NCBI GenBank assembly: GCA_963811315.1
Contig: CAWERH010000039.1
Location: forward strand, 4,501 to 68,500
Origin: an uncultured delta proteobacterium
GTDB taxonomy: Bacteria > Desulfobacterota > Binatia > UBA9968
Length of the DNA: 64,000 bases
Direction: 5' to 3'
Shown here: piece after piece, positions 16,008 through 39,415 of the stretch
Position numbering within the stretch: the stretch's first letter is position 1
Layout: the number at the start of each line of letters is the position of its first letter
Program-made: the position numbers and the translations under genes
Notes under the pieces: generated by a model
What the model was told of the DNA's origin: nothing
What the model saw: only the letters and a program-made list of their open reading frames with translations
Database searches by the model: none

Positions 16008-17021
16008 TCAACGGTAGCCGGCATCGTCGGCAGGCAGACCACGTTCTTGGACCTCCACGAGGTAGCGCCAGCAGTCCGGCTGGGTGCCGTCGATGTCGGT
16101 GAAGCCGTAGATGGGGGCGAGCTGTCCGCTGGAGACGACCTTACCCGTCCAGCGCGCAACCTCCGGGTCCGCTGCGAGGGCGGCGACCGCGCGGCCGACG
16201 TAGGTCGGCGACTCGGAGATGCAAAAGTGCGGCATGCGGGCGGTCGCGTCCCGCCAGTTTGCTTCGGTCACGCCGTACGCGTCGAGCATCTTCTCCGAAC
16301 GCAGCCAGCCCGGAGTTACGGCGACGGCCGCGCCGTGGTGCGGGGCCAGCTCGTGACTCTGCGCGAGAGCCATGCGCTGCACGGCGTTTTTGACCAGGTC
16401 GTAGAAGAATCCCACCTGGTGGCGGTACGCCGCGTTGTACTCTGCGGTCCCGTCGGTCATCTCGATGACCAGCCCGCCGGGGCGGCGGATGAGCAGCGGC
16501 AGGGCGTGGTGGCTGGTGATCGCATGCGTGTCGATGCCCAGGCGCAGCATTCGCAGCCCGCCGGCGAGGTCGTGCTCCCACAGCTTGGTGTTGAACTGGA
16601 GGTAGGTGTCGCCGCCCCAGATGTCGTTCACGAGCACGTCGAGGCGGCCGTGGTCTCGGTCGATGCGCTGGACGAGATCGCGCACCTGCTCGCTTTCGAG
16701 GTGATCCACCCGCAAGGCGATTCCCACGCCCCCGGCGGCGGCGATCAGCTCACCGGTCTCTTCGATCGTCTCCGGCCGGTTGATTTCCGACCGGCCTGCC
16801 CGGCTGCTGCGCCCGGTGGCGTAAACTGTCGCACCCGCGCGGGCAAGCTCTACGGCAATCGCACGTCCGGCGCCGCGCGTGGCGCCTGCGACTAACGCCA
16901 CTTTCCCGGTTAATGCTCCAGCTTTTGCTTCATTCTTCGCTGTGGCTTCCATTGGCATTTTCTTCTTGCGCGCACCCTTCCGCGCGCCACGAAACTTAGG
17001 TGCGTTTTCAACAAGCCTCAT
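16008..17021 (-). CDS. short-chain dehydrogenase/reductase (SDR) family oxidoreductase
   Basis: ..GKVALVAGATRGAGRAIAVELARAGATV.. (TGxxxGxG Rossmann motif). The ATG at 17019-17021 overlaps the TGA of the upstream amidohydrolase in an ATGA arrangement. The +strand ORF 15930-16895 is an antisense artefact of ~70% GC. Confidence 0.8.
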   Translation of the reverse strand: MRLVENAPKFRGARKGARKKKMPMEATAKNEAKAGALTGKVALVAGATRGAGRAIAVELARAGATVYATGRSSRAGRSEINRPETIEETGELIAAAGGVGIALRVDHLESEQVRDLVQRIDRDHGRLDVLVNDIWGGDTYLQFNTKLWEHDLAGGLRMLRLGIDTHAITSHHALPLLIRRPGGLVIEMTDGTAEYNAAYRHQVGFFYDLVKNAVQRMALAQSHELAPHHGAAVAVTPGWLRSEKMLDAYGVTEANWRDATARMPHFCISESPTYVGRAVAALAADPEVARWTGKVVSSGQLAPIYGFTDIDGTQPDCWRYLVEVQERGLPADDAGYR

Positions 17022-18114
17022 AGCCCATAAAACTTCCTCGGATTGTCACACAAGATCTTTTCCACGAGACTTGGCGCCACGTCTTCGCGCGCCTTCATCT
17101 GGGTCACCAGATGAGCTTGTTCAGCGGGGTCGTTGTGACCGTAGTCGGAGCCGGTGAGCAGGTGGCCTTCGCCGGTGTACTTGATTAGGTAGGGAATATC
17201 TTCGTCGGCCTCGCAGGCGACGAAGAAACGGCAATCTTCGAAAAGATCGGCAGGGGATTGCCACGATGCTTTCCAGCGTTTGGTGTTGTCGCGCCGTAGC
17301 TTGTGGATCAAGTAGGGTATCCAACTGGCGGAAGCTTCGATGAAGCCGAAGCGCAGTTTTGGAAACATGTCGGGAATCTGATTGAGCACGAGATCGCGAA
17401 ACGCGTGCAGGGGCGGAAAGCCGGAGTGAGACCATTGCCGATTGCGCTCCAGATCGAACATCGCGGTGACGGCCGGGGTGCCGGAGCCGGTGTGAATGCA
17501 GATCGGTAGATCGAGTTCCATCGACGTTTGATATACCGGGAAAAAGTACGGGTTGTCCAAGGTCAAGTTGCCTTCCATGCCGCGGAAGAATACCCCGACG
17601 GCGCCGTTTTGCTTGGCCCACTTCAGCTCCTGCACCGATTCCTCGATGCAACGCAGCGGCGGGATCGCCACCCAGTGGATGCGGTCGTGACTCTGCGCGC
17701 AGGCTTGCGCCATGAAACGGTTATAGGCGCGGCTCAACGCCACGTCGAGCTCGGCGTCGTCGGTGAGGTAGATCAGAAACAGAGTCGGATAAACCACCTG
17801 AGCCGCGATGCCGCCGCGATCCATATCGGCGAGCCGGGCCGGGACGTCGGTCAACTCTCGGCACGCGACCTGAATGTCTTTTCTGTTCGATTGGATTTTC
17901 GACGCCGAGGGGTGACGAGACGGAAGCCGCCCTTGCCGACCGGCTTGGGAAAAATGTTGCCGTCGATCAGCCAGGTCGCATTCCAGCCGCCGTATAACGT
18001 GTCGTCCGGCAGAGACAGCAAAACCGGCCGGCGCGGGTACATCTCCTTGTCGATCATCTGCCACATGGCTTCCGATTCGGCTACGTGAGTATCGGCATCG
18101 ATGATGGGTTGCAT
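17018..18114 (-). CDS. amidohydrolase-2 family protein; frameshift at the G4 run near 17908-17911
   Basis: N-terminus MQPIIDADTHVAESEAMWQ..GKGGFRLVTP (ORF 17851-18114) joins ..SASKIQSNRKDIQVACRELTD...PICIHTG...TGSDYGHND..FYGL (ORF 17018-18064). Paralog of 1533-2646. Confidence 0.75.
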
Positions 18115-18213
18115 ATTTTTAATCCTTCCTTCGAAAGCGCAGTTATATCATAAGTCAGCTCTGCACTCAGGCGTTCTTTCTTCTATGCTGAGCAACTGTC
18201 GAAGTCATCTCGC

Positions 18214-18276
18214 GAAGATTTTCAGCTAATGCAAAGACGAGATTCTTCGCCTTCGGCTCAGAATGACATTGAGTCA
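18214..18276. repeat. degenerate MITE/REP-like hairpin copy
   Basis: gtcatctcgcgaagattttc...gagattcttcgccttcggctcagaatgac. The left arm lacks the CTGAGCCGAAG segment. Confidence 0.4.
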
Positions 18277-18779
18277 CAGTTCTCGATGGTGAAAAACCCC
18301 GGCTTAGACGTAGCATCAATACTGACTCCGATGTTATGGCAGAAAACTCAAGTCGACGAGCTGCGGCATGAAATCAAGACTGCGACCGACCAACGCTTGC
18401 ATCGACAACGTGCCGCCGGCGATGTAGATCACTTCAACGTCCAGTTGGTTCTGTTTAAGAATACCGGCGTCCTTGGCGATGCTGAAGGCACGGCTTCGGT
18501 GCTCGCCGGGGAATTGGTGCCGACCCGCAGAGATGTCAACTGCGCCGCAGCTATACTCGGACCGATAAGAAACAGTGCGGCGGCAAGGATTACCCAGGCA
18601 TAGCGCATCGATGAAGGAATGGATTTCAAATGAGATTCTCGCTGGGTTACGACGCTAGAGCTAGAACAATTGCCCGGACCTGTCAACGCGGAATCGCCGG
18701 CCGCTCAGGTTGCAGACACAGGATGACTTTGCCTATATAGAAACAGTCAAGTTTCGCGCTTCTTAGGAGGATTAGGTTC

Positions 18780-19343
18780 ATGGCGACGATTAAATTTCTC
18801 GATCCCCGAGTGGTGATCAATCCCAAAGACCAGCCGCTGGTGCCGGGTCTGGATACGCTCGAAGGAAAAGTTATCGGCATCATCGATAACGGGCAGGCCA
18901 ATTCGACGACGATGTTTCAAGAGCTGGCGCAACTGATGCAAGAAAAACTTCATACCAAGGAAGTTCTGTTCAAAACCAAACCGACGCACATGCAGGGCGC
19001 GCCGAAACCGATCATGGAAGAAATCCTCAACCGGTGCGACGCGGTGATCACCGGTTTAGGCGCTTGAGGGTCGTGCACGTCGTGGAGTGTCCACGACGCC
19101 ATCGAATTGCAAAAGAAGGGAAAGCCGACGGTAACCCTGTGCCAGTCGATCTTTATGGCGCTGGCGCGCACCGAGGCGAAGTTTTTCGGCATCGCTAAAT
19201 TACCTCTGGTCGAAATCCCGCATCATCCGAGCGGCGGCGCACGGCCTGGTGAGCATCGAGCGGATGCCGAGGGCGCGGTTAGTTTGGTTAATGAGCAGTT
19301 GACGCTGGGTGGGGCGGCGTTGAAGAAGACGCGACAGCGGTGA
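18780..19343 (+). CDS. UGSC-motif selenoprotein, copy 2; in-frame UGA at 19065-19067 read as selenocysteine
   Basis: ..VITGLGA U GSCTSWSVHDAIELQKKGKPTVTL... continues to TGA 19341-19343. The peptide after the UGA aligns with copy 1 (SLEIQKRGRFAITL.. versus AIELQKKGKPTVTL..). SD AGGAGG lies 9 nt before the ATG at 18780. Confidence 0.7.
19079..19097 (+). other. candidate bacterial SECIS stem-loop GUCGUGG-AGUGU-CCACGAC (identical to 6819-6837)
   Basis: It starts 11 nt after the UGA and its nucleotide sequence is conserved between the paralogs. Confidence 0.6.
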
Positions 19344-20967: not shown

Positions 20968-21010
20968 TAGCAATTGGAGTAGTGGAGTGATGCGGAAGAA
21001 GATCGAGGAT
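20968..21010. repeat. tandem repeat array (TGGAGTAG/TGGAGTGA then GAGGATG x3) overlapping the start region of the next gene
   Basis: ttggagtagtggagtgatgcggaagaagatcgaggatggaggatggaggatcg. Confidence 0.35.
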
Positions 21011-23058: not shown

Positions 23059-23082
23059 GAAACGTTCGTTTCGGACAAGCCG

Positions 23083-24079: not shown

Positions 24080-24348
24080 CTGTGGTGCGCCAAGTCGTTG
24101 ATAGGGCAAGCGCGCCACGATGTGGTCGAAGGCGGACAAAGCGAAAAATCCCTCGCTTGACGCTGTGTCGTGATCTCGACTTCTTAAGTGGTCACGAAAC
24201 GCGAGATTCTCGCTAACGCTCAGAATCTTAGTGCACGTTTGGCAACTGCGACACGTCTCTGCTCGGCATGACAAACAAGTAAATATTCCAGTCCCGGAGA
24301 GAAGGAATTCGATAAAAGTAAAGCCCTGACTATAATTGCTAAGCGCGC

Positions 24349-24408: not shown

Positions 24409-25248
24409 GTGGCTGCAACATTATGGAAAGATTATAAGACGGTTAAAGTCGAAAAAGAGGACGGCATCACCTGGTGTATTCTCAATCGGCCGGAAAAAAG
24501 AAACGCCATGAATCCGCAGCTTCACTACGATATGCTCGAAGCTCTCACCGAATTGGAAGTCGATAAAGACACCAAAGTGCTGGTGATCACAGGCGCGGGG
24601 CCGAGTTGGTGCGCCGGACAGGACTTGCGCGAATATTTTCGCGGCACGGACACCAACCCGTTGGAGCGGCGCAAGGCGAGCTGGGCATCCCAAGAGTGGC
24701 GTTGGCGCCGGCTTTTCTGGTTCCCGAAACCGACCATCGCGATGGTGAACGGTTTCTGTTTCGGCGGTGCTTTCACCCCGCTGATCGCCTGCGATTTCGC
24801 GATCGCCGCGGAAGACGCGACCTTCGGCCTGAGCGAAGTCAATTGGGGTATTTTCCCGGGCGGTTTGGTCAGCCGAGTTTTGGCCGACGCGATGTGCTAC
24901 CGCGACGCCATGTGGGCGATCATGACCGGCGATCCCTTCGACGGCAAGAAAGCCGCTGAGATGAAGCTGATCAACTACGCTGTGCCGAAGGAGAAATTAC
25001 GCGAGGAGACGATCGCTCTGGCGCAGAAGCTGATGAAAAAGAACCCGCAGGTGCTGCGCGCCGCGAAAGAGGTTTATAAATATTGCCGCACGATGGATTA
25101 CAGCCAGGCGGAGGAATACATGAGCGCGAAAGGCACGGCGCTCCGTCTCACCGATCCGGAAAAGGGCCGCGAAACCGGCATGGAGCAATTTCTCGACAAG
25201 AAGACCTACCGTCCGGGATTGGGCGAGTACAATCGGGACGCGAAATAA
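24409..25248 (+). CDS. enoyl-CoA hydratase/isomerase (crotonase) family protein
   Basis: 279 aa: ..ILNRPEKRNAMNPQL..VITGAGPSWCAGQDL..FCFGGAFTPLIACDFAIAAEDATFGLSEVNWGIFPGG.. Confidence 0.85.
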   Translation: MAATLWKDYKTVKVEKEDGITWCILNRPEKRNAMNPQLHYDMLEALTELEVDKDTKVLVITGAGPSWCAGQDLREYFRGTDTNPLERRKASWASQEWRWRRLFWFPKPTIAMVNGFCFGGAFTPLIACDFAIAAEDATFGLSEVNWGIFPGGLVSRVLADAMCYRDAMWAIMTGDPFDGKKAAEMKLINYAVPKEKLREETIALAQKLMKKNPQVLRAAKEVYKYCRTMDYSQAEEYMSAKGTALRLTDPEKGRETGMEQFLDKKTYRPGLGEYNRDAK

Positions 25249-25369: not shown

Positions 25370-26535
25370 GTGGATTTCAATCTTCCCGAAGAGCTGCAAG
25401 TTCTAAAAGACACCGTCCGCAAATTCGTCGATCGCGAGTTGATTCCGCTCGAGCGCGAGTGCCGCCCCGAGGGCGAGGACATGCCCGAGCAGTACATCAA
25501 GCCGCTGCAAGAAAAAGCCAAGGCCATCGGTCTATGGCTGCTCGATGTGCCGGAGGAATACGGCGGCGCCGGCCTGGATCTCATGAGCCGTTGCGTGATC
25601 ATGGAAGAGGTCGCGCGCACGGTGGCGATCCCGTTTCGCTATGCGCCGATCTTCGGGCCGGAAGTGCGGCCGGTATTGTTCCACTGCAACGAGGAACAGA
25701 AGAAGCGATTTTTGCTGCCGGTGATCGAAGGCAAGATGCGGATTTGCTTTGCGCAAACCGAGCCCGATGCCGGCAGCGATCCAGCCGGGGATGAAGACGC
25801 GGGCGGTAAGAGACGGCGATCATTACATTATCAATGGCACCAAGCGCTTCATCACCGGCGCAAAGCACGCCGACTACGCCCAAGTCATTGCGGTCACGGA
25901 CCCGCAGAAGGGCGCGCGCGGCGGCGTGAGTTGTTTCATGGTCAGCATGAAGGCGCCGGGCGTTACGCTAGAGCGGCTGTGGCCGACGATGATGGGCGAC
26001 ACGCCGGGACAGATTCATTTCGAAAACGCGCGAGTGGCTGCCGCCGACATGATCGGCGGGGAAGGGCAAGGGTTTTGCGATCGCGCAAAAATGGATCGAG
26101 GAAGGGCGCATCCGCGGCCATGGCGCGCGTCCGGTCGGCATCGCGTCGCGCGCGCTCGACATGATGATCGAGTATTCCAAAGTCCGCACGACCTTCGGCC
26201 AGCCGCTGGCGAACCGCCAGGCGATTCAATTCATGATCGCCGACTCGGCGATGGAACTGCATGCCTGCCGCTTGATGGTTTACGAGTGCGCCTGGCGTCA
26301 CGACCGCGGCGAAGATATTCGCCAGCTTTCTTACATGACGAAAATTCAGTGCGCCGAGATGGCGAGCCGGGTGGTCGACCGCTCGATTCAAGTGCACGGC
26401 GGCTTGGGACTAATGCGCGAGCTGCCGCTCGAGTGGTGGTATCGCCAGGTGCGCAGCATCCGCATCACCGAAGGCACGCCGGAAGTTTTGCGCTGGCGTT
26501 TGGCAGAGCACATCATTAAGAATCACAAAGGATGA
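25370..26535 (+). CDS. acyl-CoA dehydrogenase; two frameshifts (G4 run 25791-25794 and T4 run 26073-26076)
   Basis: Three ORFs concatenate: MDFNLPEELQVLKDTVRKF..EPDAGSDPAG | MKTRAVRDGDHYIINGTKRFITG..GEGQGF | AIAQKWIEEGRI...QVHGGLGLMRELPLEWWYRQVRSIRITEGTPEV.. Confidence 0.75.
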
Positions 26536-26645: not shown

Positions 26646-27856
26646 ATGACTGATACGCTCGATGCAACTGCGCTGCTGCCCGGCTACCGAGTCCTCGATC
26701 TCACCTCGTCGATCGGCGCGCTGTGCGGCAAATTGCTCGGCGACCTGGGAATGGATGTCATCAAGATCGAGCCGCCCGACGGTGGCGCGGCGCGCAGGGA
26801 GCCGCCCTTCGCCAATGGGCACGCGCATCGGGAGGGCAGTCTCCGCTTCGCCTATCTCAACGCCGGCAAGCGCAGCATCACGCTCGATCTCACCAAGCCG
26901 AGCGCGCGAAATTTGTTGCTCCAGTTAGTCGAGCGCGCCGACGTAATCGTCGAGGACTTCGCTCCCGGGTATCTATCCGGATTGGGTTTGAGCTATGAAG
27001 CTCTGCTCGAAAAACAGAGCAAGCTTATTCTCGTGTCGATCAGCGGCTTCGGTCAGGACGGGCCCTACGCGAATTACCAAACCACGGATCTGATCGGCAA
27101 TGCCATGGGCGGGCTGCTCTATATCAGCGGCGACCCGAAAATGACGCCGTGCAATCCGCCGGAAACCCAGTCGCTCTATTACGCGAGTCTGTTCGCGTCC
27201 TACGGCGTCATGCTGGCGCTGTGGCAGCGCGAGACCCGCGGCATCGGCGCGTGGATCGATACTTCGGTGCAAGCGAGCATGGCGCTGCACGAGCACGTGG
27301 CGTTCAACTATTCCGCCGAGGGACGGGTGATGAAGCGCGCCGGCAGCCAGCACCAGCACAATGCGCCGGCGAATTTGTTCCAATGCAAGAACGGTTGGAT
27401 CTCGCTCTTCGTCACGCAGACGCATTGGCCGCTCCTGCTTAAAGTTTGGCCCGATCACGATCCCGAGCTCGACGATCCCAAGTGGATCAACAGCAACCTG
27501 CGCCGGCAGCATGCCGATTACATCAACGCGCAGGTGACCGCGTTTACGTCGGGTTTTCTCAAGGAAGATCTGGCGGAGCTGATGCAGAAGCACGGTATTC
27601 CCGGTTTGCCGGTCAACTCGCCGTCGGATTTTATGAAGGACCCGCACATTCAAGCGCGCGGGTTTTTTGCCAATGTGACGCATCCCGTGCTCGGTTCGTT
27701 TGCCCAGCCGGGAACTCCTTTTATGGTCGACGGCCAGCGCTCGCGCGCCGTCGCCCGCGCCGCTGCTGGGACAGCACAATCATGAAGTGCTTTGTGGCGA
27801 GCTGGGATTGAGCGCGGGCGAGATGGCGGTGCTGGCGGCGGAAAAAACTATTTGAG
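26646..27856 (+). CDS. CoA-transferase family III (CaiB/BaiF/BbsE-like); frameshift near 27735
   Basis: ..YRVLDLTSSIGALCGKLLGDLGMDVIKIEPPDGG... and a C-terminus recovered in the other frame: PPLLGQHNHEVLCGELGLSAGEMAVLAAEKTI*. Confidence 0.75.
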
Positions 27857-27959: not shown

Positions 27960-29171
27960 ATGTCTCCTAGTCAGATTTTAAAAGGCGTGCGCATTCTCGC
28001 TTTCACCACGGGCTACGCCGGTCCTTACGCCGGCAGGCTGCTTGCGGCCTACGGCGCGGAGGTGATCAAGATCGAGTCGAGGAAGGGCGGGCTCGATACC
28101 TTTCGCCATTACGGCCAGCACAAGGATATCGACGCCGCGCCGCGTTTCATCGAGTGCAACCTCGGCGTGCGCTCGTTTGCGGTCAATCTCAAACATCCGA
28201 CCGGCGCCAGACTGGTTCGCGAACTGGCCGGTAAATCGGATGCGATTCTGCAAAATTTTCGTCCTAGAGTGTTGGATAAGCTGGGTTTGGGTGACGACGA
28301 ACTGAGAAAACTTAATCCTAAACTTGTGGTTGTGAAATTGCCGGGCTTCGGTTCCGAAGGGCCGAAGAGCGGTTACGGCACTTGGGGATTTAATCTTACG
28401 GCTTTCTCCGGCATGACCTATCTGTGGAATCATCCCGAGCAGGATCGCCCCATCGGCAGTCAGGGCGTCTATCCCGATCACTTGGGTTTCGTTATGGGGC
28501 CGACGCTGCTGGTCGCGGCGCTGCTGAACAGCCGGCGTAGCGGCAAGGGCGTGACCATCGATTTGGCGCAGATCGAAGGCACGGCGTACACGCTCGGCGC
28601 GACTTACCTGGAAACCTCGGTGAACGGCGACGATCCTCAGCCGCAGGGAAATCACTACGCGCTCGCCGCGCCGCACGGCTGTTACCGTTGCCAGGGCGAT
28701 GACCGCTGGTGCGTTATTTCGGTGCGTGACGACGATGAGTGGCGCGCTTTCTGCCGCGTCATCGGCAGGGCGGAATTGATCAGCGACGCGCGTTTTACCG
28801 ATCTGCAAACCCGACTGGGGCATCGGACTGAGCTCGACGACATTGTCAGCGCGTGGACGCAAGCGCGGCCTGCGGAAGAGGTCATGACCCAGATGCAATC
28901 CGCCGGGGTGCCTGCCGGTGTGGTGCAGAGCGGCGCGGACCTGCTCAAGGATCCTCAACTGCGCCACCGCAACTATTTTTCGCCATTCGCCGATTCGTTG
29001 ATCGGTCCGTTTGAAATCCCGCGCAGTGGTTTCCTGTTCCGCGGCTTGAACGAAGAACCTCTGCGCTTACCCAATCGACTCGGCGCAGACAATGAGCCAA
29101 TTCTAACCGATTTGCTCGGTTATGATCAGGCAACGATCGAGCAATGGCGCCAGGAAGAAGTGCTCACATAA
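27960..29171 (+). CDS. CoA-transferase family III (CaiB/BaiF/BbsF-like)
   Basis: 403 aa, intact: ..VRILAFTTGYAGPYAGRLLAAYGAEVIKIESRKGG... Confidence 0.85.
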   Translation: MSPSQILKGVRILAFTTGYAGPYAGRLLAAYGAEVIKIESRKGGLDTFRHYGQHKDIDAAPRFIECNLGVRSFAVNLKHPTGARLVRELAGKSDAILQNFRPRVLDKLGLGDDELRKLNPKLVVVKLPGFGSEGPKSGYGTWGFNLTAFSGMTYLWNHPEQDRPIGSQGVYPDHLGFVMGPTLLVAALLNSRRSGKGVTIDLAQIEGTAYTLGATYLETSVNGDDPQPQGNHYALAAPHGCYRCQGDDRWCVISVRDDDEWRAFCRVIGRAELISDARFTDLQTRLGHRTELDDIVSAWTQARPAEEVMTQMQSAGVPAGVVQSGADLLKDPQLRHRNYFSPFADSLIGPFEIPRSGFLFRGLNEEPLRLPNRLGADNEPILTDLLGYDQATIEQWRQEEVLT

Positions 29172-29215
29172 ATTCTTAGGACCAACCCCATCGATTAAAT
29201 ACGAGAGGGATTCAG

Positions 29216-30186
29216 ATGTGGAAACGGGTTTTAGACACGGCTCATCCTCCTTTTGTTCCTCTCGTGGGCAATTCCGTGCTCACGCTCAAGAAGTCATTAA
29301 ACTCCATGCCAGCGTCGTAGCGAAAACATTCGGTTTTGGTCCCGTCTGGGTTGCGTCCAAGCAAGGATTTTTCAATCAGCAAAAACTCGACGTCGAGGTT
29401 CTCCTCATCCGCGGCTCGGACGTTTCCACGCAGGCTCTGGCCAGCGGCTCGCTGCAAGTTTCCGGCGCATCGGCCGACGCGCCAATCGCCGCCTTTGACC
29501 GCGGCTTGGACATGGTGATTATCGGCGGGATCATCAACGGTCTCAGCCAATCGCTCATGGGCGGCAAAAACTACAAAACCTATGAAGATTTGCGCGGCGC
29601 CACCCTCGGCGCCAATAGTCTTACCGCCGGCACGGCGTTCGCTCTGCGGCGCGTGCTCAAAGCCAAAGGCTTGGAATACCCGCGCGACTACAAGCTGATC
29701 AACGTCGGTGGCACGCCGCAGGCCCTGGCGGCATTGGCTTCAGGGCAGATCGCCGCGGCGCCGCTTTCTTTGCCGGTGAATTTTGTCGCCGAGGAACAGG
29801 GGTTCAATACCATCGGCCGGTTTATCGATGTGATTCCGCACTATCAGCTTTCGGTCTATTCGGTGATGCGGCCGTGGGCCGAAAAAAATCGCGGAGTCGT
29901 CGTCCGTTTCATGAGATCGATCTCATTGGCGGCGCGCTGGATATTCGCGAACAAGGATGCCGCAGTAGATTTGCTCGCCAAAGAGATGGGCCTCAAACGC
30001 GAGTACGCGCGCAAAGGCTGGGAGTTCTACACCGAAAAAGGGTTGTGGAGTCCGGTCGGCGACGTGACGCTTGACGGCCTCGCCATCGTCGCGCAAATCT
30101 ACGCGGAGCAAAACCAGCTCAAGGGACCGCCGCCCAATCCGGCCAAGTACGTCGATCAAAGTTATCTGCAGGAAGCGCTGAAATGA
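29216..30186 (+). CDS. NMT1-like periplasmic substrate-binding protein (subtype B, paralog of 20987-21999); frameshift(s) in the first 80 nt
   Basis: ATG 29216 gives MWKRVL. The signal-like TRLILLLFLSWAIP lies in a second frame and the mature part AHAQEVIKLHASVVAKTFGFGPVWVASKQG in a third. One or two indels are needed to join them. Confidence 0.65.
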
Positions 30187-30870: not shown

Positions 30871-30871
30871 G

Positions 30872-34192: not shown

Positions 34193-35246
34193 TCACCGAC
34201 GCATGAATTCTGAAACAGTCTTCTGCCACTTGGCCATCGCCTGATCGTATTGAGAAGTTGTCAAACCCTCTTCCGGATACCAGCGTTTAAACCCGTAATC
34301 CTTTAAAGGGCTGCCGTGTTTGAAAGTCTCGATGAGCATTTTCTGTCCTTCGGGACTGAGAAGAAAATCGACCAATAACAGTGCACCATGAGGACGTTGG
34401 GCGTGAGAAAAAACAGCCGCACCGCCGGAGATCGCGGGCACGAGATCCATCGGAACCCATGCGACGGGCGCGCCTTTGTCGACTGCATGACCAATGTTGC
34501 TATGAATAGCCGTAAACGATATCGGCACCTCTCCGGATACCATTAATTCATTGAAGCCGGGACCACTAACCCCATGGACCGTAATGTCCTGTTCCTTTAA
34601 TTTTTTCACGAAACCTTCACCTTTTGCTTTGATTATGCCGCCGATAAGTCGAGCGGCGACATCGTCGTTGCTGATCGACATTTTTCCCTTCAGGGCCGGC
34701 TTTAACAGATCGTCGAAGCTCTTAGGGATGTCGGCTGAGGGCAGAGCATTCTTGTTGTAGCCCACGCCGATATAGGACTCCCGGTCAGTCGTCCAAAAAA
34801 CCAACCCGCGCGGGGCCTTTTGTTTGGCGGCGTCGGGGTATTCGGACAAATACGGCGAGGTGTATGGTAAGAGCAGTTGGCTGTCCCGTAACACCATTAG
34901 TCCGGGAGGCGAAGTTTCAATTACATCTCCGAGATAACGTTTCGAACTCGCTTCGGCCAAGACCCGGGTCGCCAGTTGGGTGCCGCTCGCTCGATAGGTC
35001 TCGATGGTTACACCGGGATATTTGGATTCAAATATTTTAACGATTTCCTTGTTCGCAATCAGAGAGGTGTACCATAAGAGCTTGCCTTCTTGCTTCGCTC
35101 CTTCATAGAGCAACCGCCCGCGGTCGGAGCCCTGTATATTTGGCCAAATCAGCTAGAGTCGTCGGCTTGGCGCTTTGACCCCAAGCGCTTCCTGGAAGAC
35201 TTGAAAGAAAAAAAATGGCGGCGAACAAGATTTGTCGGCCAGACAT
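34193..35246 (-). CDS. extracellular solute-binding protein family 1 (Fe3+-type); frameshift at the C3/G3 run near 35130
   Basis: The signal-peptide ORF 35103-35354 (MSGRQILFAAIFFLSSLPGSAWG..ADLAKYTG) joins ORF 34193-35113 (LYEGAKQEGKLLWYTSL..). SD GGAGG lies 7 nt before ATG 35244-35246. Confidence 0.75.
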
Positions 35247-35442
35247 CTGAATTCCTCCGGGTAGCACTTTGTAGTTTACGGTTCTTAGCTGCAGTGAACG
35301 GACAAAGTCAATGTAAGAAAACAACGACGGCGTTGGGATACGTTTGCTTAGCACGCATCTCTAAGGTTGACGTAAGATCCGGTTGTTGGATATCGTCTGA
35401 TCACGACCAGCGATATCGTTACCCGTCGGAGAACGTGACACG

Positions 35443-36451
35443 ATGATGCGTTTTGCTTTGGCTCTATGGATCGCCGCCTTTGTTGCCTTTGGTTTTTCTT
35501 CAGAATCGAGCGCAGCAACGAGAGAAGATCTCATTGAAGCGGCAAAAAAAGAACGTGAAGTGGTTTTTTACACCACGACGAATTTAGAAGAAGCCGCCGC
35601 GATGAGCGCGTCGCTTCAAGGCGAAATATCCGTTCCTCGACGTCAACATCAACCGGGCAGAAGGCGAAAGGATCGTCACCAAAGTCCTGCAGGAGGCGCG
35701 CGCCAAGAAATCCCTTGTGGACGTAATGCAAACGCCGGCATTTTATCTCCATGCGCTAAAAACAAGGGGGATTTTAGGCGAATACTCCTCGCCAGAGGAC
35801 CGTTTTTACCCGCGGAACTTTAAAGAAGAGAAATCCTGGACCACGACCTACTACAATCCGTACGTGGTTCTCTACAACACCAAGCTCGTCTCCGCTCAAA
35901 ACCTGCCGAAGCGGTACGAAGATCTGCTGAATCCTTTCTGGAAAAATAAAATGATCTTGGAAAAGGACAAGATCGATTGGTTCACGGCGATGCTGCAGAT
36001 TATGGGAAGAGAAAAGGGCGTTAGATACATGAGAGACCTGTCCCGGCAGAATCCGATGTTGCGGATCGGGCAGACCCTCATAACCCAATTGGTTGCCGCC
36101 GGTGAAATAGCGCTGCAGATCAACGCCAACGCCGTGAGCGTTAACCGGCTAAAGCAAAGAGGCGCTCCGATCGATTGGGTTGCGCTGGGACCTCTGCCGG
36201 GCCTGATGGTCGGAGTGGGTCTCATGTCTCAAGCGCCGCACCCTGCCGCAGCGAGACTGTTTGTCGACTTCTTGCTGTCCAAAGAGGGGCAACAGCTTTA
36301 TCAAAGCGCCGGGCGACTGGTCGCGAGATCCGATTTGCCCCAGGATGAGAGCATGAAAGTTAGAGGAGCCCAGATTGTGCCCGTCGACCCTGCCTGGGCC
36401 GAAAACTTCGACGAAGACTCGAAGCTAATGAAAGAGATTTTTTCCAACTGA
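35443..36451 (+). CDS. extracellular solute-binding protein family 1 (Fe3+-type); frameshift near 35600
   Basis: MMRFALALWIAAFVAFGFSSESSAATREDLIEAAKKEREVVFYTTTN..SASL | KAKYPFLDVNINRAEGER...LPKRYEDLLNPFWKNKM... Confidence 0.75.
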
Positions 36452-36469
36452 GAATCGAACGCGAGCATA

Positions 36470-36522
36470 TTGTCATCCCGAGCGAAAGTGCGGATCTAGA
36501 TTTCTCGCTGCGGTCGAAATGA
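36470..36522. repeat. MITE/REP-like hairpin (short copy)
   Basis: gtcatcccgagcgaaagtgcggatctagatttctcgctgcggtcgaaatgac. Confidence 0.45.
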
Positions 36523-36577
36523 CGACAGAGCACATGTTTCGGGTACGCCAAGGACTAAAGCATAGAATGAGGTAAAC

Positions 36578-37761
36578 ATGCCGGAGCAATCGATCAAAGA
36601 CAAAACCGCGATCGTCGGGATCGGATGGACCGCGTTCTCGCGTAAATCCGGAGTCACGACCTTAAGCCTCGCTGCCGAGGCAAGCCTCAAGGCGATCGCC
36701 GATGCCGGGCTGCAAGTCCAGGACATCGATGGAGTGGTTTCGTTTTACCACCGGCAGCCGGAAGGCCAGATGGTACGGGAATTGGTCCGCGCGCTCGGTC
36801 TAAAGAAATGCAACTTCGAATTCTACAGCGACGGCGGCGGCGGTTGGAACTGCGGCGCGGTGCTCTCCGGCGCGATGCTCGTGCACTCGGGGATCTGCAA
36901 GAACGTCCTGGTTTTCAAAGCGCGCAATCGTTATAGCCAAGGACGCGCCGCGCGGGCGGAGCGGGCCAACGACGTCAAGGGCGACGCGCAGTTCACCACG
37001 CCTTTCGGCATCCACCATGCCGCCGCTTCTTTCGGTCCCATCGCGACGGCGCACATGGCGCGCTACGGCACCACGACGCTGGACTTTGCCCATCTCGCCG
37101 TCACCGAGCGCAGCCACGCCGCCCTCAACCAAAAGGCGATGATGCGCAAGCCGATCACCATCGACGACCACCAGAACTCGCGCTGGATCATCTATCCTTT
37201 TCGATTGCTCGATTGCTGCCAGGAGAGCGACGGCGGCGTCGCCATGGTGATCACCTCGGCGGAACGGGCGCGCGATCTGAAACAGGCGCCGGTCTATATC
37301 ATGTCGGGCATGGGCGGCCAGGGTCAGACGGCGGGTCTTTGGGAAACCAACGGCGCCAACTCCGCTCCGCTTCTTTATGAAGGGGCGGGCATCACGCCGA
37401 AGGATGTCAGCATTGCCGAGATTTACGATCCGTTTACATTCATGTGCATGACGCACATCGAAGACTTCGGTCTGGTCAAGAAGGGCGAGATCGGCGGATG
37501 GGTCACGGCGGGCCACAATCGCCTCGACGGCGACTCTGCCGGTGAACACTCACGGCGGCCTGCATGTCCGAGGCGCACATTCACGGGCTCAATCACGTGA
37601 TCGAGGCGGTCCAGCAACTGCGCCCCGAAGGCGTGGTCGATGATCTTTGCGACGGCGCGCATACCTATGACCGCTCCACTTGCCGCCAGGTGCGAAACCC
37701 AGAGATCGCGCTGGTATGCGGCGAGTGCGGCGAGAGCGCCATGCTCCTGAGGAGGGCGTAA
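36578..37761 (+). CDS. thiolase-like protein, SCP-x/nonspecific lipid-transfer-protein type (BbsB-like); two frameshifts at 37530-37570
   Basis: MPEQSIKDKTAIVGIGWTAFSRKSG..DCCQESDGGVAMVITSAERA.. then LPVNTHGGLH and SEAHIHGLNHVIEAVQQLR..ALVCGECGESAMLL in the two other frames. Confidence 0.75.
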
Positions 37762-37763
37762 CG

Positions 37764-38181
37764 ATGGCAGACTATACCAAGCCGCTACCGATACCGGATC
37801 TTGATTCACAGCCATTCTGGGACCGATGCAAAGCGCACGAGCTTTCGGCACAGCGCTGCGACGATTGTGGAAAATTCCGCTGGCCGCCCCAAGCTTTCTG
37901 CCCGCATTGCTATTCTTGGAAATTCGCACTGGACGAAGCTCGGCGAAACCGGCACCGTGTATTCTTTCGTGGTCGTGCATTACGTGTCGATTCCTGCTTT
38001 TGAGGGCGACGTGCCGTACGTCGTAGCGCACATCACCCTCGACGGCACCGAGGATCAGATAACGATGATCAGCAACGTGATCCAATGCCCGTGGCAGGAA
38101 GTGCGGATCGGGATGCCCGTGCGGGTGGTCTTCGAAGATGTCACACCGGAAGTGACTCTGCCGAAGTTTCGCCCGCTCTGA
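37764..38181 (+). CDS. DUF35 Zn-ribbon/OB-fold protein (thiolase partner, BbsA-like); frameshift near 37905
   Basis: MADYTKPLP..FWDRCKAHELSAQRCDDCGKFRWPPQAFCPHCYSW | SHWTKLGETGTVYSFVVVHY.. The ATG is 2 nt after the thiolase stop. SD GGAGG is present. Confidence 0.7.
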
Positions 38182-38232
38182 AGAATGTGAACTCCAACAA
38201 TCCAATACTCCATCACTCCAATACTCCAGCTG
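38182..38232. repeat. inverted copy of the TGGAGTA 8-mer tandem array
   Basis: ctccaacaatccaatactccatcactccaatactccag is the reverse complement of the array at 30872-30925. Confidence 0.45.
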
Positions 38233-38252
38233 CTTTCTAGGAGGTATCAACC

Positions 38253-39415
38253 ATGCCCGGCGCTCTCCAAGACTTACGTGTGATCGACTTTACCCACGCC
38301 CTCGCCGGACCTTTCTGCGTGATGTTGCTTGGCCATCTGGGCGCCGACATTATCAAGGTCGAGCCGCCCAACGGCGATGAGTTTCGCCGGTTATGGATGC
38401 AGCCCGGCGCCACCACCGATGCCTACGAGTCCTTATGGATAAACGTCAACAAGAAAAGCATCGTGCTCAATCTAAAGACCCAAAAGGGAGTCGAGCTGGC
38501 GCGCCGGCTCATTGCCCGCGCCGACGTGCTCGTCGAGAACTACCAAAAAGGCGTGATGGAGCGATTCGGTCTGGACTACGACTCAGTCAAGGCTCTCAAC
38601 CCGCGGCTGATCTACGCCTGCTCGCGCGGTTACGGCGAGTGGGGACCGTATGCCAACTACGGCAATACCGCGGCGAGCAACAACAGCATCGCCGGATGGC
38701 TCCATAGCGCATGGAAAAACAACGGCGCGCCGGGGACCAAGACGCTTGGGCATCGGCGACGAAGCCGCCGGCGTGAGCATCGCGCTCGGCATCCTCGCGG
38801 CTCTGCACGCGCGCGAGCGCACCGGCGAGGGCCAGAAGGTCGAGGTTTCGATGCAAGAAGCCGTCCTTGGTTTCATGACCAGCTCGATGCACGAGCATTT
38901 CACAGGCAATCGCGTCGGCAATCGGCCCGATGAAAGTGGCCGACGGCTATTTCACCTTGCGTGTGCCGGACATGAGTGATGCGGTTTGGGCGCAGGCAGC
39001 AAAGGTCATCGGCGGAAACGAGCTACTTCAAGATCCCCGTTTTGCAACGGCGAGCGCGCGCCGCCAGCACCGCGCCGAACTGGAGGAGATCGTCAAAGAC
39101 TGGGCAAGCGGGAAAACTCGTCAGGAAATTTGGGACGGGCTGCGCGAGCTCGATTACTTCGGCGCGCCTGTGCTGTCCATTGGCGAAGTAATGGAAGATC
39201 AGCACATCAAAGAGCGGCGCGCGTTCATTGAACGCGATCACCCGACCGCGGGGCCGACTACATTGCTTGCTCCCTGGATTCACCTCTCTAAAACTCCCAC
39301 TAGCATCCATCATGATGCGCCCGCCATCGGCCAGCACACCGACGAAGTGCTCGGCGCGCTTGGCTTGACCACGGCGGATTTGGCCGACCTGCGGGCGCAG
39401 GGTGTTATTAAGTAG
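38253..39415 (+). CDS. CoA-transferase family III (third copy); two frameshifts (near 38745 and 38935)
   Basis: MPGALQDLRVIDFTHALAGPFCVMLLGHLGADIIKVEPPNGDE.. | ..GIGDEAAGVSIALGILAALHARERTGEGQKVEVSMQE.. | ..DYFGAPVLSIGEVMEDQHIKERRAF.. Confidence 0.7.

What the first reader, a model, noticed from the sequence alone, without database searches (positions are those of the whole stretch)
16008..39415. Complete Bbs-like modified beta-oxidation gene set (two-subunit-type family-III CoA-transferases, ACAD, ECH, SCP-x thiolase + DUF35, SDR)
The set comprises ECH (24409), ACAD (25370), an adjacent pair of family-III CoA-transferases (26646, 27960) plus a third (38253), an SCP-x thiolase with an immediately following DUF35 Zn-ribbon/OB protein (36578/37764, 2-nt spacer), and an SDR (16008). 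This is the enzyme complement of benzylsuccinate-type (bbsA-H) or steroid/alicyclic side-chain beta-oxidation, where a DUF35 protein partners the thiolase and two family-III subunits form the CoA-transferase. The gene order differs from bbs, so this could be an analogous pathway for a different 2-substituted acid.
Basis: inference. Interest (0 to 1): 0.55.

Follow-up and report, generated by a model that had tools for sequence, protein, structure and literature searches.

The report
CoA-transferase plus retro-aldol lyase cassette
The genes are real, but they are not one benzylsuccinate-style beta-oxidation pathway: a conserved, uncharacterised four-gene cassette in soil Binatia bacteria probably cuts an acid side chain into an aldehyde plus a short acyl-CoA, and the "thiolase" and reductase nearby belong to separate units.

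Summary
All named genes exist at the stated coordinates. About 11 frameshifts interrupt eight genes in or between them (ACAD, CoA-transferases 1 and 3, thiolase-like, DUF35, two binding proteins, a GNAT). They sit at G-runs and differ between related assemblies, so they are probably long-read errors. The source is a Candidatus Binatia soil MAG.

The "complete set" splits into three unrelated units.

1. A conserved cassette at 24409-29171: HCHL-type enoyl-CoA hydratase/lyase, ACAD, then two family-III CoA-transferases. These pair one-to-one with the two chains of benzylsuccinate CoA-transferase. CoAT1 keeps the catalytic Asp. CoAT2 has Gly there, like Bbs chain B.
2. A separate module at 35425-39415: binding protein, Ltp2-like thiolase-fold protein lacking the nucleophilic Cys, DUF35, and an Asp-less CoA-transferase. 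It is absent from close relatives and lies on another contig in one MAG.
3. An SDR on the opposite strand, outside the conserved block.

In other lineages the CoA-transferase pair sits beside either an HCHL-like lyase or a Sal-like aldolase with DUF35, never both.

Best reading: CoA transfer, dehydrogenation, hydration and retro-aldol cleavage to an aldehyde plus acyl-CoA, with no thiolysis. The substrate is unknown; 3-arylpropionates are the leading guess. This is a new variant of known kinds.

The parts
24309..24336 (+). Promoter-like site (TCGATA-16-TATAAT, 10 of 12 matches), about 70 nt upstream of the ECH start.
   Evidence: It is the best-scoring site in 23900-39700, but the total count of sites is no higher than in shuffled sequence, so it is only suggestive.
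24409..25248 (+). Module 1, gene 1: HCHL-type enoyl-CoA hydratase/lyase (279 aa, intact).
   Evidence: Pfam ECH_1. NCBIfam NF006588 scores 402 bits against a cut-off of 276. PDB 2J5I/2VSS gives E 8e-96 at 56% identity. Glu143 is conserved. Tyr239 is Ser/Gly/Ala in 45 of 48 orthologs and never Tyr.
25370..26535 (+). Module 1, gene 2: acyl-CoA dehydrogenase. It has two frameshifts, near 25789 and 26062-26075. Intact relatives are 387 aa.
   Evidence: Pfam N-terminal and C-terminal ACAD domains in different frames. tblastn with intact orthologs. It resembles SCAD/Bcd/CarC enzymes. The catalytic Glu in 'ITEGT' is seen in the ortholog.
26646..27855 (+). Module 1, gene 3: CoAT1, the catalytic family-III CoA-transferase subunit (like Bbs chain A). 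It has one frameshift near 27740. Intact relatives are 402 aa.
   Evidence: Pfam CoA_transf_3. Best PDB match is 9FN0_A. The catalytic Asp is present in the window copy and in 75 of 76 orthologs. The TGA stop at 27853-27855 was checked.
27960..29171 (+). Module 1, gene 4: CoAT2, an Asp-less family-III subunit (like Bbs chain B), 403 aa and intact.
   Evidence: Pfam CoA_transf_3. Best PDB match is 9FN0_B at 192 bits. Gly occupies the catalytic Asp position in 83 of 83 orthologs and in 9FN0_B. It groups with chain B at 99% bootstrap.
29122..30186 (+). NMT1/THI5-type solute-binding protein, a conserved downstream neighbour of CoAT2. The true start is probably near 29284.
   Evidence: Pfam. An ortholog sits in the same position in L001-L003.
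35425..36451 (+). Module 2, gene 1: SBP_bac_1/6-type solute-binding protein, with a frameshift near 35607.
   Evidence: Pfam. It is 80% identical to the SBP directly upstream of the thiolase-like gene in L085.
36578..37761 (+). Module 2, gene 2: Ltp2-like thiolase-fold protein, a probable aldolase and not a thiolase. It has two frameshifts, near 37535 and 37563. Intact relatives are 393 aa.
   Evidence: Best PDB match is 6OK1 (Ltp2) at E 1e-71; BbsB (7PXP) scores only 9e-24. Gly sits at the nucleophilic Cys position. The motif is YDPF, and His replaces Ltp2 Tyr344.
37764..38181 (+). Module 2, gene 3: stand-alone DUF35 protein (zinc ribbon plus OB fold), with a frameshift near 37925. Intact relatives are 138 aa.
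   Evidence: Pfam zf-ChsH2 and OB_ChsH2_C lie in two frames. tblastn with the L085 ortholog. The 2-nt spacer after the upstream gene was confirmed.
38253..39415 (+). Module 2, gene 4: CoAT3, a family-III CoA-transferase homolog with Ala at the catalytic Asp position. It has two frameshifts. Intact relatives are 387 aa.
   Evidence: Pfam. tblastn. Asp column. All NCBIfam matches are below their cut-offs.
16008..17021 (-). The SDR named in the finding, judged NOT part of either module. It overlaps the end of Amidohydro_2 (17018-18064, minus strand) by 4 nt.
   Evidence: Pfam and NCBIfam PRK08303. It lies outside the block collinear with L001. No ortholog appears in any of the 80 related loci, although their 10-kb flank stops about 1 kb short of the SDR's position in the window.

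Best explanation
The region holds two independent catabolic modules plus an unrelated SDR.

Module 1 (24409-29171) is a self-contained cassette that shortens an acid side chain in three steps.
1. A heteromeric family-III CoA-transferase moves CoA from a donor acyl-CoA onto a free carboxylic acid. CoAT1 carries the catalytic Asp. CoAT2 is an Asp-less partner, as in benzylsuccinate CoA-transferase.
2. The ACAD introduces the 2,3 double bond.
3. The HCHL-type crotonase hydrates the enoyl-CoA and cleaves it by a retro-aldol reaction. The products are an aldehyde and a short acyl-CoA, which can serve again as CoA donor. This 'CoA loop' would explain why the cassette has no ligase, no 3-hydroxyacyl-CoA dehydrogenase and no thiolase.

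The most likely substrates are 3-arylpropionate or dihydrocinnamate-type plant and humic acids, giving an aryl aldehyde plus acetyl-CoA.

Module 2 (35425-39415) is a separate unit built around an Ltp2-like aldolase with a DUF35 partner and a catalytically suspect CoA-transferase homolog.

Shown here: the family assignments, the catalytic-residue states, and the conservation and independence of the modules.
Inferred: the order of the reactions, the CoA loop, the heteromer and the substrate class.
For: The cassette is conserved.
- Across 80 species-level genome loci, CoAT1 is adjacent to CoAT2 in 71 of 71 loci with room for it, and the ACAD in 64 of 65.
- The HCHL-like gene is adjacent in 39 of 63 overall, and in 30 of 30 loci within the clade at 75% or more CoAT2 identity.
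- The loci are labelled mainly Binatia or deltaproteobacterial, with a few Chloroflexota, Acidobacteriota and Actinomycetota.

The lyase assignment is strong.
- NF006588 scores 402 bits against a cut-off of 276.
- Identity to the solved P. fluorescens HCHL is 56% over the full length, at E 8e-96.
- The catalytic Glu143 is invariant.

The transferase architecture matches Bbs.
- Best hits to 9FN0 chains A and B are reciprocal, with 89% and 99% bootstrap support.
- Asp is kept in 75 of 76 CoAT1 orthologs. Gly replaces it in 83 of 83 CoAT2 orthologs and in Bbs chain B.

Independent comparative support points to aldehyde-forming cleavage.
- In Actinomycetota locus L084 and metagenome locus L098, the ACAD-CoAT1-CoAT2 core follows a Sal-like thiolase-fold gene and a DUF35 gene. 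In L084, where the sequence was read, that protein lacks the nucleophilic Cys and has a YDCF motif. L084 also has a canonical crotonase directly after CoAT2 and two aldehyde dehydrogenases further downstream.
- Marine Binatia loci carry the same Sal-like/DUF35 pair 1-10 kb away.
- Of 41 loci of at least 18 kb, 23 have the HCHL-like gene only, 12 have Sal-like plus DUF35 only, none has both, one has DUF35 alone at the locus edge and 5 have neither.
- Other metagenome contigs place an HCHL-like gene beside the pair in shuffled orders: HCHL-CoAT1-CoAT2 in L093 and CoAT1-CoAT2-HCHL in L096.

Precedents exist.
- CarA and CarC of Acetobacterium woodii form a CoA loop on caffeate and hydrocaffeate (PMC8085960). 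CarC is the second-best solved match of the ACAD.
- The P. putida fcs-ech-vdh operon also carries an ACAD (PMC7136493).

The window context is rich in Amidohydro_2 genes, with a GST, alpha/beta-hydrolases and luciferase-like monooxygenases. This fits breakdown of aromatic or humic acids.

Module independence is documented.
Against: - No enzyme of this cassette has been assayed, and the substrate is not identified.
- HCHL Tyr239, which I recall as a phenolate ligand (Bennett et al. 2008, not checked with the tools), is never Tyr in the 48 orthologs: it is Ser, Gly or Ala in 45. Met70 becomes Gln and Ser123 becomes Thr in all 48. A 4-hydroxycinnamoyl-CoA substrate therefore cannot be assumed.
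- Identity of CoAT1 and CoAT2 to the Bbs chains is only 29-32%. CoAT1 is equally close to human SUGCT.
- The tree used only five solved reference sequences. Other two-subunit enzymes (SmtAB, phthalate SptAB) and CarA, FldA, Frc, CaiB and BaiF were not available.
- The window has no aldehyde dehydrogenase to take the product.
- Five of 41 long loci have neither lyase type within 10 kb.
- The intergenic gaps of 105-120 nt leave co-transcription unproven.
- The either/or pattern of lyase partners is partly clade-structured, so the number of independent events is small: roughly three to six.
Confidence: 0.55

Rival explanations
1. One complete Bbs-like modified beta-oxidation: the CoAT pair activates a 2-substituted succinate, the ACAD and ECH act on it, the SDR at 16008 oxidises the 3-hydroxyacyl-CoA, and the thiolase/DUF35 pair at 36578/37764 cleaves it thiolytically.
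For: All the families are present within 23 kb. The CoAT pair is of the Bbs type. In BbsAB a DUF35 protein partners the thiolase (PMC10818641). Some contigs (L077, L113, L125) repeat the window's arrangement, with the thiolase-like gene about 7-8 kb downstream.
Against: - The thiolase-fold protein has Gly at the nucleophilic Cys position, and YDPF in place of the HDCF motif of SCP-2 thiolases.
- Its BbsB model score is 88 bits against a cut-off of 750.
- The ECH is a hydratase/lyase rather than a BbsH-like hydratase.
- The SDR is on the other strand and outside the syntenic block.
- Module 2 is absent from 18 of 18 close relatives with enough flank. It is deleted in L026 and on another contig in JACQUW01.
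Confidence: 0.05
2. Same three-step scheme, but on a 2-substituted succinate such as a benzylsuccinate or alkylsuccinate analogue. Succinyl-CoA is the donor. Retro-aldol cleavage of the hydrated alkylidene-succinyl-CoA releases an aldehyde plus succinyl-CoA, closing a succinyl-CoA loop.
For: - The transferase is of the Bbs type, including its pseudo-subunit.
- BbsEF uses succinyl-CoA as donor (PMC10818641).
- The loss of Tyr239 and the invariant Met70-to-Gln change in the lyase point to a substrate other than 4-hydroxycinnamoyl-CoA.
- The chemistry is formally the same as the HCHL reaction.
Against: - The lyase is 56% identical to an enzyme that releases acetyl-CoA.
- Transferase identity to Bbs is only about 30%.
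- The window has no fumarate-adding glycyl-radical enzyme, and no stop-free frame exceeds 502 codons.
- From general knowledge, 2-substituted succinates are rare outside anoxic hydrocarbon degradation, whereas these cassettes are common in soil MAGs.
Confidence: 0.12
3. A carnitine/crotonobetaine-type set, with ACAD as CaiA, the family-III CoA-transferase as CaiB and the crotonase as CaiD. The nearby NMT1-type binding proteins would import a quaternary amine.
For: The same three families occur together in the cai operon (my own knowledge). JGI annotation names many orthologs 'CaiB-like'.
Against: - The CaiB model scores 89-102 bits against a cut-off of 413.
- The CaiA model scores 174 bits against a cut-off of 540.
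- The crotonase passes the HCHL cut-off, and no CaiD-type model appears among its 25 best NCBIfam matches.
- CaiB is not known to me as a heteromer with an Asp-less subunit.
Confidence: 0.02
4. Module 2, or both modules together, degrade a steroid or bile-acid side chain, as Ltp2-ChsH2 and Sal-Shy do.
For: The best solved relative of the thiolase-fold protein is the steroid aldolase Ltp2, at E 1e-71. A DUF35 partner is present. Some sources name homologs at 58-60% identity IgrF or 17-hydroxy-3-oxo-4-pregnene-20-carboxyl-CoA lyase.
Against: - There is no MaoC hydratase and no heteromeric ChsE-type ACAD, and no steroid ring-degradation genes appear in the window or in related loci.
- DUF35 is stand-alone rather than fused to a hydratase.
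- The second catalytic residue differs: His in place of Tyr344, and Pro in place of the His or Cys of the YDxF motif.
Confidence: 0.05
5. The frameshifted genes are true pseudogenes, so the region is a decaying, non-functional paralog graveyard.
For: There are eleven frameshifts in about 23 kb.
Against: - Those inspected sit at short G-runs.
- The closest relative, L001 (88-94% nucleotide identity), has frameshifts in different genes: CoAT2 is split and CoAT1 intact.
- Orthologs in other assemblies are full length.
- Protein identity across each frameshift stays at 86-96%.
Confidence: 0.05

Closest known systems
Benzylsuccinate beta-oxidation, BbsEF-BbsG-BbsH-BbsCD-BbsAB (Thauera aromatica, Geobacter metallireducens; PMC10818641; PDB 9FN0, 7PXP)
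   Same: Both have a two-gene family-III CoA-transferase in which one chain carries the catalytic Asp and the other carries Gly. Both place it next to an ACAD and a crotonase-fold enzyme. Best hits are reciprocal, CoAT1 to chain A and CoAT2 to chain B.
   Different: - Identity is only 29-32%.
- The crotonase here is an HCHL-type lyase rather than a plain hydratase.
- The conserved cassette has no BbsCD-type dehydrogenase and no Cys-bearing BbsB thiolase.
- The gene order differs.
- The host is Binatia, and the window has no bss genes.
CoA-dependent, non-beta-oxidative hydroxycinnamate pathway, Fcs-Ech(HCHL)-Vdh (Pseudomonas fluorescens AN103, P. putida; PDB 2J5I, 2VSS)
   Same: The hydratase/lyase is 56% identical over its full length and passes the NCBIfam equivalog cut-off. 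Glu143 and (mostly) Tyr75 are conserved. The predicted products are likewise an aldehyde plus acyl-CoA.
   Different: - Activation is by a CoA-transferase pair rather than an ATP-dependent ligase.
- An ACAD precedes the lyase.
- No vanillin-type aldehyde dehydrogenase is adjacent.
- Tyr239 is replaced, mostly by Ser, Gly or Ala, and Met70 by Gln, in all 48 orthologs.
Steroid side-chain aldolases Ltp2-ChsH2(DUF35) and Sal-Shy(DUF35) (PDB 6OK1; PMC12329534)
   Same: A thiolase-fold protein without the nucleophilic Cys keeps the Tyr of the YDxF motif and pairs with a DUF35 zinc-ribbon/OB protein. This applies to module 2 of the window, and to the Sal-like (YDCF) partners of the core in L047 and L084.
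   Different: DUF35 is stand-alone and no MaoC hydratase is present. The window protein has YDPF, with His at the Tyr344 position. There is no steroid context.
Caffeate CoA loop, CarA (CoA-transferase) and CarC (ACAD), of Acetobacterium woodii (PMC8085960; PDB 6FAH)
   Same: A CoA-transferase and an ACAD act on a phenylpropanoid and its dihydro form, and the product thioester re-primes activation. CarC is the second-best solved match of the ACAD.
   Different: The Car system runs reductively with an electron-bifurcating Etf and has no lyase. Relatedness of CarA to CoAT1 and CoAT2 was not tested.

Membership tests
Bbs benzylsuccinate beta-oxidation pathway | Two-subunit family-III succinyl-CoA:benzylsuccinate CoA-transferase (BbsEF) | tested here: met
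   The architecture matches. Best PDB hits to 9FN0 chains A and B are reciprocal, bootstrap support is 89% and 99%, and the Asp/Gly split is shared. Identity is only about 30% and substrate specificity was not tested.
Bbs benzylsuccinate beta-oxidation pathway | BbsH-type hydratase that stops at the 3-hydroxyacyl-CoA | tested here: not met
   The crotonase passes the HCHL hydratase/lyase equivalog model at 402 bits (cut-off 276) and is 56% identical to solved HCHL.
Bbs benzylsuccinate beta-oxidation pathway | BbsCD short-chain alcohol dehydrogenase encoded with the pathway | tested here: not met
   The only SDR (16008-17021) is on the opposite strand and outside the syntenic block, and no ortholog appears in the 80 related loci, whose flank however ends just short of its position.
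Bbs benzylsuccinate beta-oxidation pathway | BbsAB thiolase: a Cys-nucleophile thiolase subunit plus a DUF35 subunit | tested here: not met
   DUF35 is present, but the thiolase-fold protein has Gly at the nucleophile position. The BbsB model scores 88 bits against a cut-off of 750, and the 7PXP match is only E 9e-24.
Bbs benzylsuccinate beta-oxidation pathway | BbsG-type benzylsuccinyl-CoA dehydrogenase | tested here: inconclusive
   The ACAD is generically like SCAD, Bcd and CarC. No BbsG reference sequence or model was available.
Bbs benzylsuccinate beta-oxidation pathway | A fumarate-adding glycyl-radical enzyme in the genome | not testable with these tools
   None is present in the 64-kb window. 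The rest of the genome is not available.
HCHL (p-hydroxycinnamoyl-CoA hydratase/lyase) | Passes the curated equivalog model, with full-length similarity to a solved HCHL | tested here: met
   NF006588 scores 402 bits against a cut-off of 276. The match to 2J5I is E 8e-96 over residues 8-276.
HCHL (p-hydroxycinnamoyl-CoA hydratase/lyase) | Catalytic Glu143 | tested here: met
   Glu is present in 48 of 48 orthologs and in 25 of 26 family representatives.
HCHL (p-hydroxycinnamoyl-CoA hydratase/lyase) | Phenolate-binding pair Tyr75 and Tyr239 (roles recalled from Bennett et al. 2008, not verified with the tools) | tested here: not met
   Tyr75 is kept (42 Tyr, 6 Phe). Position 239 is Ser, Gly or Ala in 45 of 48 orthologs and never Tyr. 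None of the 26 other family representatives has Tyr there either.
Family-III CoA-transferase (active enzyme) | Pfam CoA_transf_3 fold | tested here: met
   All three proteins match: E 6e-86, 8e-90, and 1e-49 plus 4e-26 for the two CoAT3 fragments.
Family-III CoA-transferase (active enzyme) | Catalytic Asp, the residue aligned with the Asp of SUGCT, YfdE and 4ED9 | tested here: inconclusive
   The result differs by protein. CoAT1 has Asp, so the feature is met. CoAT2 has Gly and CoAT3 has Ala, so it is not met for them.
SCP-x / SCP-2 thiolase | Nucleophilic Cys and the HDCF motif | tested here: not met
   Gly aligns with the Cys of thiolase 7YVY, and the motif is YDPF. The definitions come from PMC12329534.
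Ltp2/Sal thiolase-fold aldolases | No nucleophilic Cys, a catalytic Tyr in YDxF/Y, and a DUF35 partner | tested here: met
   All three features are present. The best solved relative is Ltp2 (6OK1) at E 1e-71.
Ltp2/Sal thiolase-fold aldolases | Second catalytic residue: Tyr344 in Ltp2, or the Cys of YDCY in Sal | tested here: not met
   The window protein has His at the Tyr344 position and Pro at the Cys/His position. The L047 and L084 partners do have YDCF.

The most novel reading that the evidence does not exclude
The cassette is a previously undescribed route that needs neither ATP nor a thiolase. A benzylsuccinate-type heteromeric CoA-transferase feeds an HCHL-type lyase, which cleaves a 2-substituted (arylmethyl- or alkyl-) succinyl-CoA derivative into an aldehyde plus succinyl-CoA. 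The succinyl-CoA then re-primes the transferase. Soil Binatia would thereby scavenge fumarate-addition products, or similar branched dicarboxylates, in three steps instead of the five of the Bbs pathway.
Probability: 0.12. Interest if true: 0.7.

Novelty: new variant of a known kind. Interest (0 to 1): 0.45.

Why it matters
If the reading holds, a large and widespread group of uncultured soil and marine bacteria shortens acid side chains through a CoA loop. These are mainly Binatia, with relatives in Chloroflexota, Acidobacteriota and Actinomycetota. The loop joins a Bbs-type heteromeric CoA-transferase, so far known to me mainly from anaerobic toluene degradation, to retro-aldol lyases.

The scheme would cost no ATP for activation. 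It would also yield aldehydes, a product class of interest for lignin valorisation and vanillin-type biocatalysis.

The analysis also gives a practical annotation rule. 'Thiolase + DUF35 + CaiB-like + ACAD + ECH' clusters in these phyla should not be read as beta-oxidation unless the thiolase Cys and the transferase Asp are checked. It also flags Asp-less family-III paralogs as likely partner subunits rather than enzymes.

Tried and rejected
- **Exact-sequence look-up of CoAT1.** It found nothing because the window copy is frameshifted.
- **Literature searches.** Searches for the HCHL residue roles, for a known ACAD + HCHL + CoA-transferase system, for Binatia metabolism and for a paper on the BbsEF structure found nothing directly usable. 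The roles of Tyr75 and Tyr239 therefore rest on my memory.
- **unk354 (19885-20967) as a fifth cassette member.** I considered this because it lies upstream on the same strand in many soil-Binatia loci. I rejected it because it always travels with a UGSC-domain gene, in unrelated contexts in other phyla.
- **Module 2 as the cleavage partner of module 1 in this genome.** I rejected this because the HCHL-type lyase is already present. In addition, module 2 is missing from close relatives and is unlinked in JACQUW01.
- **The Sal-like/DUF35 pair and the core as one operon in marine Binatia (L047).** This does not hold. The pair is on the opposite strand, and a RES-domain (toxin-type) gene lies between them.
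- **The CaiABD reading.** Rejected on model scores.
- **Rfam and tRNA scans of the window.** Both were empty.
- **Position 239 of Sphingobium FerB (7XWC).** It could not be checked, because only the five best alignments can be displayed.

Full report
**Source and sequence quality**

The window is about 57% G+C. Its proteins are 85-100% identical to proteins of MAGs labelled Candidatus Binatia or 'uncultured delta proteobacterium' (MFD isolates), many of them on long 'contig_N' assemblies.

Eleven frameshifts fall in eight genes between 20987 and 39415:
- ACAD, 2
- CoAT1, 1
- thiolase-like gene, 2
- DUF35, 1
- CoAT3, 2
- an NMT1 binding protein, a GNAT and an SBP, 1 each

Those inspected lie at short G-runs. 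The closest relative, L001, is 88-94% identical at the nucleotide level. It has CoAT1 intact but CoAT2 split. Other relatives carry full-length genes. I therefore treat the frameshifts as assembly errors. I used intact orthologs wherever a full sequence was needed.

**What is at the stated coordinates**

The SDR (16008-17021) is on the minus strand and overlaps an Amidohydro_2 gene by 4 nt.

The window as a whole is dense with paralogs:
- about 14 NMT1-type solute-binding proteins
- at least eight Amidohydro_2 proteins
- two 3-hydroxyisobutyrate-dehydrogenase-like proteins, a GST and a luciferase-like monooxygenase
- one ABC transporter

In such a region, finding one member of each beta-oxidation family within 23 kb means little on its own. 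The useful question is which genes stay together.

**Which genes stay together**

I fetched 80 species-level genome loci around CoAT2 orthologs. The counts below are for loci with room for the gene in question.

| Gene | Adjacent to the core |
|---|---|
| CoAT1 | 71 of 71 |
| ACAD | 64 of 65 |
| ECH, all loci | 39 of 63 |
| ECH, clade at 75% or more CoAT2 identity | 30 of 30 |

In the 18 loci of that close clade with at least 9 kb of downstream sequence, none has an ortholog of the thiolase-like gene, DUF35 or CoAT3; no SDR ortholog appears in any locus, though the 10-kb flank ends about 1 kb short of where the SDR lies in the window.

Nucleotide comparison adds three points.
- L001 is collinear with the window only from position 18650 onward, which leaves the SDR and its Amidohydro_2 partner outside the block.
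- L026, whose CoAT2 is 89% identical, runs collinear to 34111 and then jumps to 39602. It therefore lacks the whole stretch with the two SBPs, the thiolase-like gene, DUF35 and CoAT3.
- In MAG JACQUW01 the ECH-ACAD-CoAT1-CoAT2 cassette (L041) and the SBP-thiolase-like-DUF35-CoAT3 unit (L085) are on different contigs. The second sits among housekeeping and toxin-antitoxin genes.

The finding therefore joins a conserved four-gene cassette (module 1), a separate four-gene unit (module 2) and an unrelated SDR.

**Module 1: the crotonase is a lyase**

The ECH scores 402 bits on NCBIfam NF006588, p-hydroxycinnamoyl-CoA hydratase/lyase, whose cut-off is 276. It is 56% identical over its full length to the solved Pseudomonas fluorescens enzyme, at E 8e-96. 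Glu143 is invariant in 48 orthologs.

Other positions differ from the canonical enzyme. Tyr75 is Tyr in 42 orthologs and Phe in 6. Tyr239 is Ser, Gly or Ala in 45 of 48 and never Tyr. Met70 becomes Gln and Ser123 becomes Thr in all 48.

A scan of 1.8 billion cluster representatives found only 228 clusters at E 1e-30 or better. Among 26 full-length representatives, none other than canonical HCHL has Tyr at position 239, while Glu143 is nearly universal. The enzyme is therefore a close HCHL relative with a remodelled substrate pocket. The catalytic role of Glu143 and the phenolate-binding role of Tyr75 and Tyr239 are recalled from the literature, not verified here.

**Module 1: the transferase pair is of the Bbs type**

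CoAT1 and CoAT2 are only 26% identical to each other. CoAT1 matches 9FN0 chain A best (176 bits, against 132 for chain B). CoAT2 matches chain B best (192 bits, against 111 for chain A).

In a neighbour-joining tree with five solved references, CoAT1 orthologs group with chain A at 89% bootstrap and CoAT2 orthologs with chain B at 99%.

The column holding the catalytic Asp of SUGCT, YfdE and 4ED9 reads as follows:
- Asp in chain A and in 75 of 76 CoAT1 orthologs
- Gly in chain B and in 83 of 83 CoAT2 orthologs

This is a shared, specific feature: one catalytic subunit and one pseudo-subunit. All NCBIfam matches (formyl-CoA, mesaconate, glutarate, oxalate, carnitine) fall far below their cut-offs. 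Absolute identity to the Bbs chains is only 29-32%, so the architecture is shared but the substrate need not be.

The ACAD is of the SCAD/Bcd type and keeps the catalytic Glu. Its second-best solved relative is the caffeyl-CoA reductase CarC.

**Module 2**

Intact relatives of the thiolase-like protein are 393 aa. Its best solved relative is the steroid side-chain aldolase Ltp2 (6OK1, E 1e-71). BbsB (7PXP) scores only E 9e-24, and the BbsB model gives 88 bits against a cut-off of 750.

Where thiolases carry the nucleophilic Cys, this protein has Gly. Its motif is YDPF, compared with YDHF in Ltp2, YDCY in Sal and HDCF in SCP-2 thiolases (PMC12329534). His replaces Ltp2 Tyr344. It cannot perform thiolysis.

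The unit thiolase-like + DUF35 (2-nt spacer), usually with a CoA-transferase homolog and an SBP, recurs elsewhere. CoAT3 has Ala at the catalytic Asp position.

**Comparative evidence for an aldehyde-forming scheme**

Distant relatives of the core pair it with a different lyase.
- In Actinomycetota locus L084 the order is: GntR-like regulator (identified by eye from the translation; not scanned against a profile library), one unidentified gene, Sal-like thiolase-fold protein (no nucleophilic Cys, YDCF), DUF35, ACAD, CoAT1, CoAT2, canonical crotonase. Two aldehyde dehydrogenases lie further downstream.
- Metagenome contig L098 repeats the Sal-like, DUF35, ACAD, CoAT1, CoAT2 order.
- Marine Binatia chromosomes carry the same Sal-like/DUF35 pair 1-10 kb from the core. 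This pair is 61% identical to the L084 protein.

Among 41 loci of at least 18 kb:

| Lyase partner in the locus | Loci |
|---|---|
| HCHL-like only | 23 |
| Sal-like plus DUF35 only | 12 |
| Both HCHL-like and Sal-like | 0 |
| DUF35 only, at the locus edge | 1 |
| Neither | 5 |

Other contigs show HCHL-CoAT1-CoAT2 (L093, with no ACAD between) and CoAT1-CoAT2-HCHL (L096). The transferase pair is thus repeatedly linked, in shuffled orders, to one of two kinds of retro-aldol C-C lyase. It is never linked to a Cys-bearing thiolase or an SDR. The pattern is partly clade-structured, so it reflects only a handful of independent events.

**Proposed mechanism**

Activation is by CoA transfer (CoAT1/CoAT2). 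The ACAD then dehydrogenates the acyl-CoA. The HCHL-like enzyme hydrates the product and cleaves it to an aldehyde plus a short acyl-CoA, which can act again as CoA donor. No ligase, dehydrogenase or thiolase is required.

Two precedents exist. The CarA/CarC CoA loop acts on caffeate and hydrocaffeate (PMC8085960). An ACAD sits in the Pseudomonas fcs-ech-vdh operon (PMC7136493).

I favour 3-arylpropionate or dihydrocinnamate-type substrates for three reasons: the lyase is so close to HCHL, the window is rich in Amidohydro_2, GST and hydrolase genes, and such acids are common in soil. The altered pocket keeps this open. A 2-substituted succinate yielding succinyl-CoA is the main alternative.

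A promoter-like site lies about 70 nt upstream of the ECH. Gaps of 105-120 nt separate the four genes, and co-transcription is not shown.

**Verdict**

The Bbs-like transferase pair with an ACAD and a crotonase is real and conserved. The 'complete Bbs-like beta-oxidation set' is not, because three of its defining features were tested and not met. The cassette is an uncharacterised new variant that combines known enzyme kinds.

Noticed in passing
window 18780-19067 (+) and 19885-20967 (+); paralog at 7239-8357 (+): A roughly 95-aa UGSC-domain protein is followed by a 354-360-aa protein with no Pfam, NCBIfam or PDB sequence match. More than 7500 homologs exist, all called 'hypothetical'. The pair recurs in Acidobacteriota and other phyla in unrelated contexts. 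An AlphaFold model is confident (pLDDT 88.6, pTM 0.90), yet Foldseek finds nothing in the PDB at E 0.001 or better. The weak top hits are class I fumarate hydratase (TM 0.24-0.29). Cys86 and Cys184 are invariant.
   Followed up: partly
window 38253-39415; L085 9661-10824: CoAT3, the family-III homolog next to the Ltp2-like/DUF35 pair, has Ala at the catalytic Asp position. It may be a pseudo-enzyme or a partner subunit rather than a transferase.
   Followed up: partly
L084 8811-9998: The actinobacterial CoAT1 ortholog has His where the other 75 of 76 orthologs have the catalytic Asp.
   Followed up: no
whole window, e.g. 2968-3960, 8412-11520, 20987-24079, 29122-34120, 40809-41858, 45822-46793, 58894-59883: About 14 NMT1/THI5-type solute-binding protein paralogs lie in 64 kb. 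Only one ABC permease/ATPase pair is present (46790-48415), so most are orphan binding proteins.
   Followed up: no
window 1533-2889, 3966-5006, 5364-6452, 17018-18064, 51319-52500, 57819-58880; also DUF6282 at 39538-40878: At least eight Amidohydro_2 (PF04909) paralogs occur, none reaching any NCBIfam cut-off. In other genomes the same family recurs next to thiolase-like/DUF35 pairs (L047, L088).
   Followed up: no
window 20987-39415: There are eleven frameshifts in about 18 kb, those inspected at short G-runs. This is typical of an incompletely polished long-read assembly, so any gene call in this window needs frameshift-aware translation.
   Followed up: yes
window 61416-62708 and 62689-63897: Transglycosylase and transpeptidase domains lie in two overlapping ORFs. 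This is probably one class A penicillin-binding protein split by another frameshift.
   Followed up: no
L002 4817-7537, L003 4866-7586: Several relatives carry a 906-aa response-regulator/GAF/GGDEF/EAL gene between the NMT1 genes and the ECH. It is absent at this position in the window and in L001.
   Followed up: no
window 43496-44479 (-): A 327-aa protein with a Tim44-like domain (E 3e-40).
   Followed up: no
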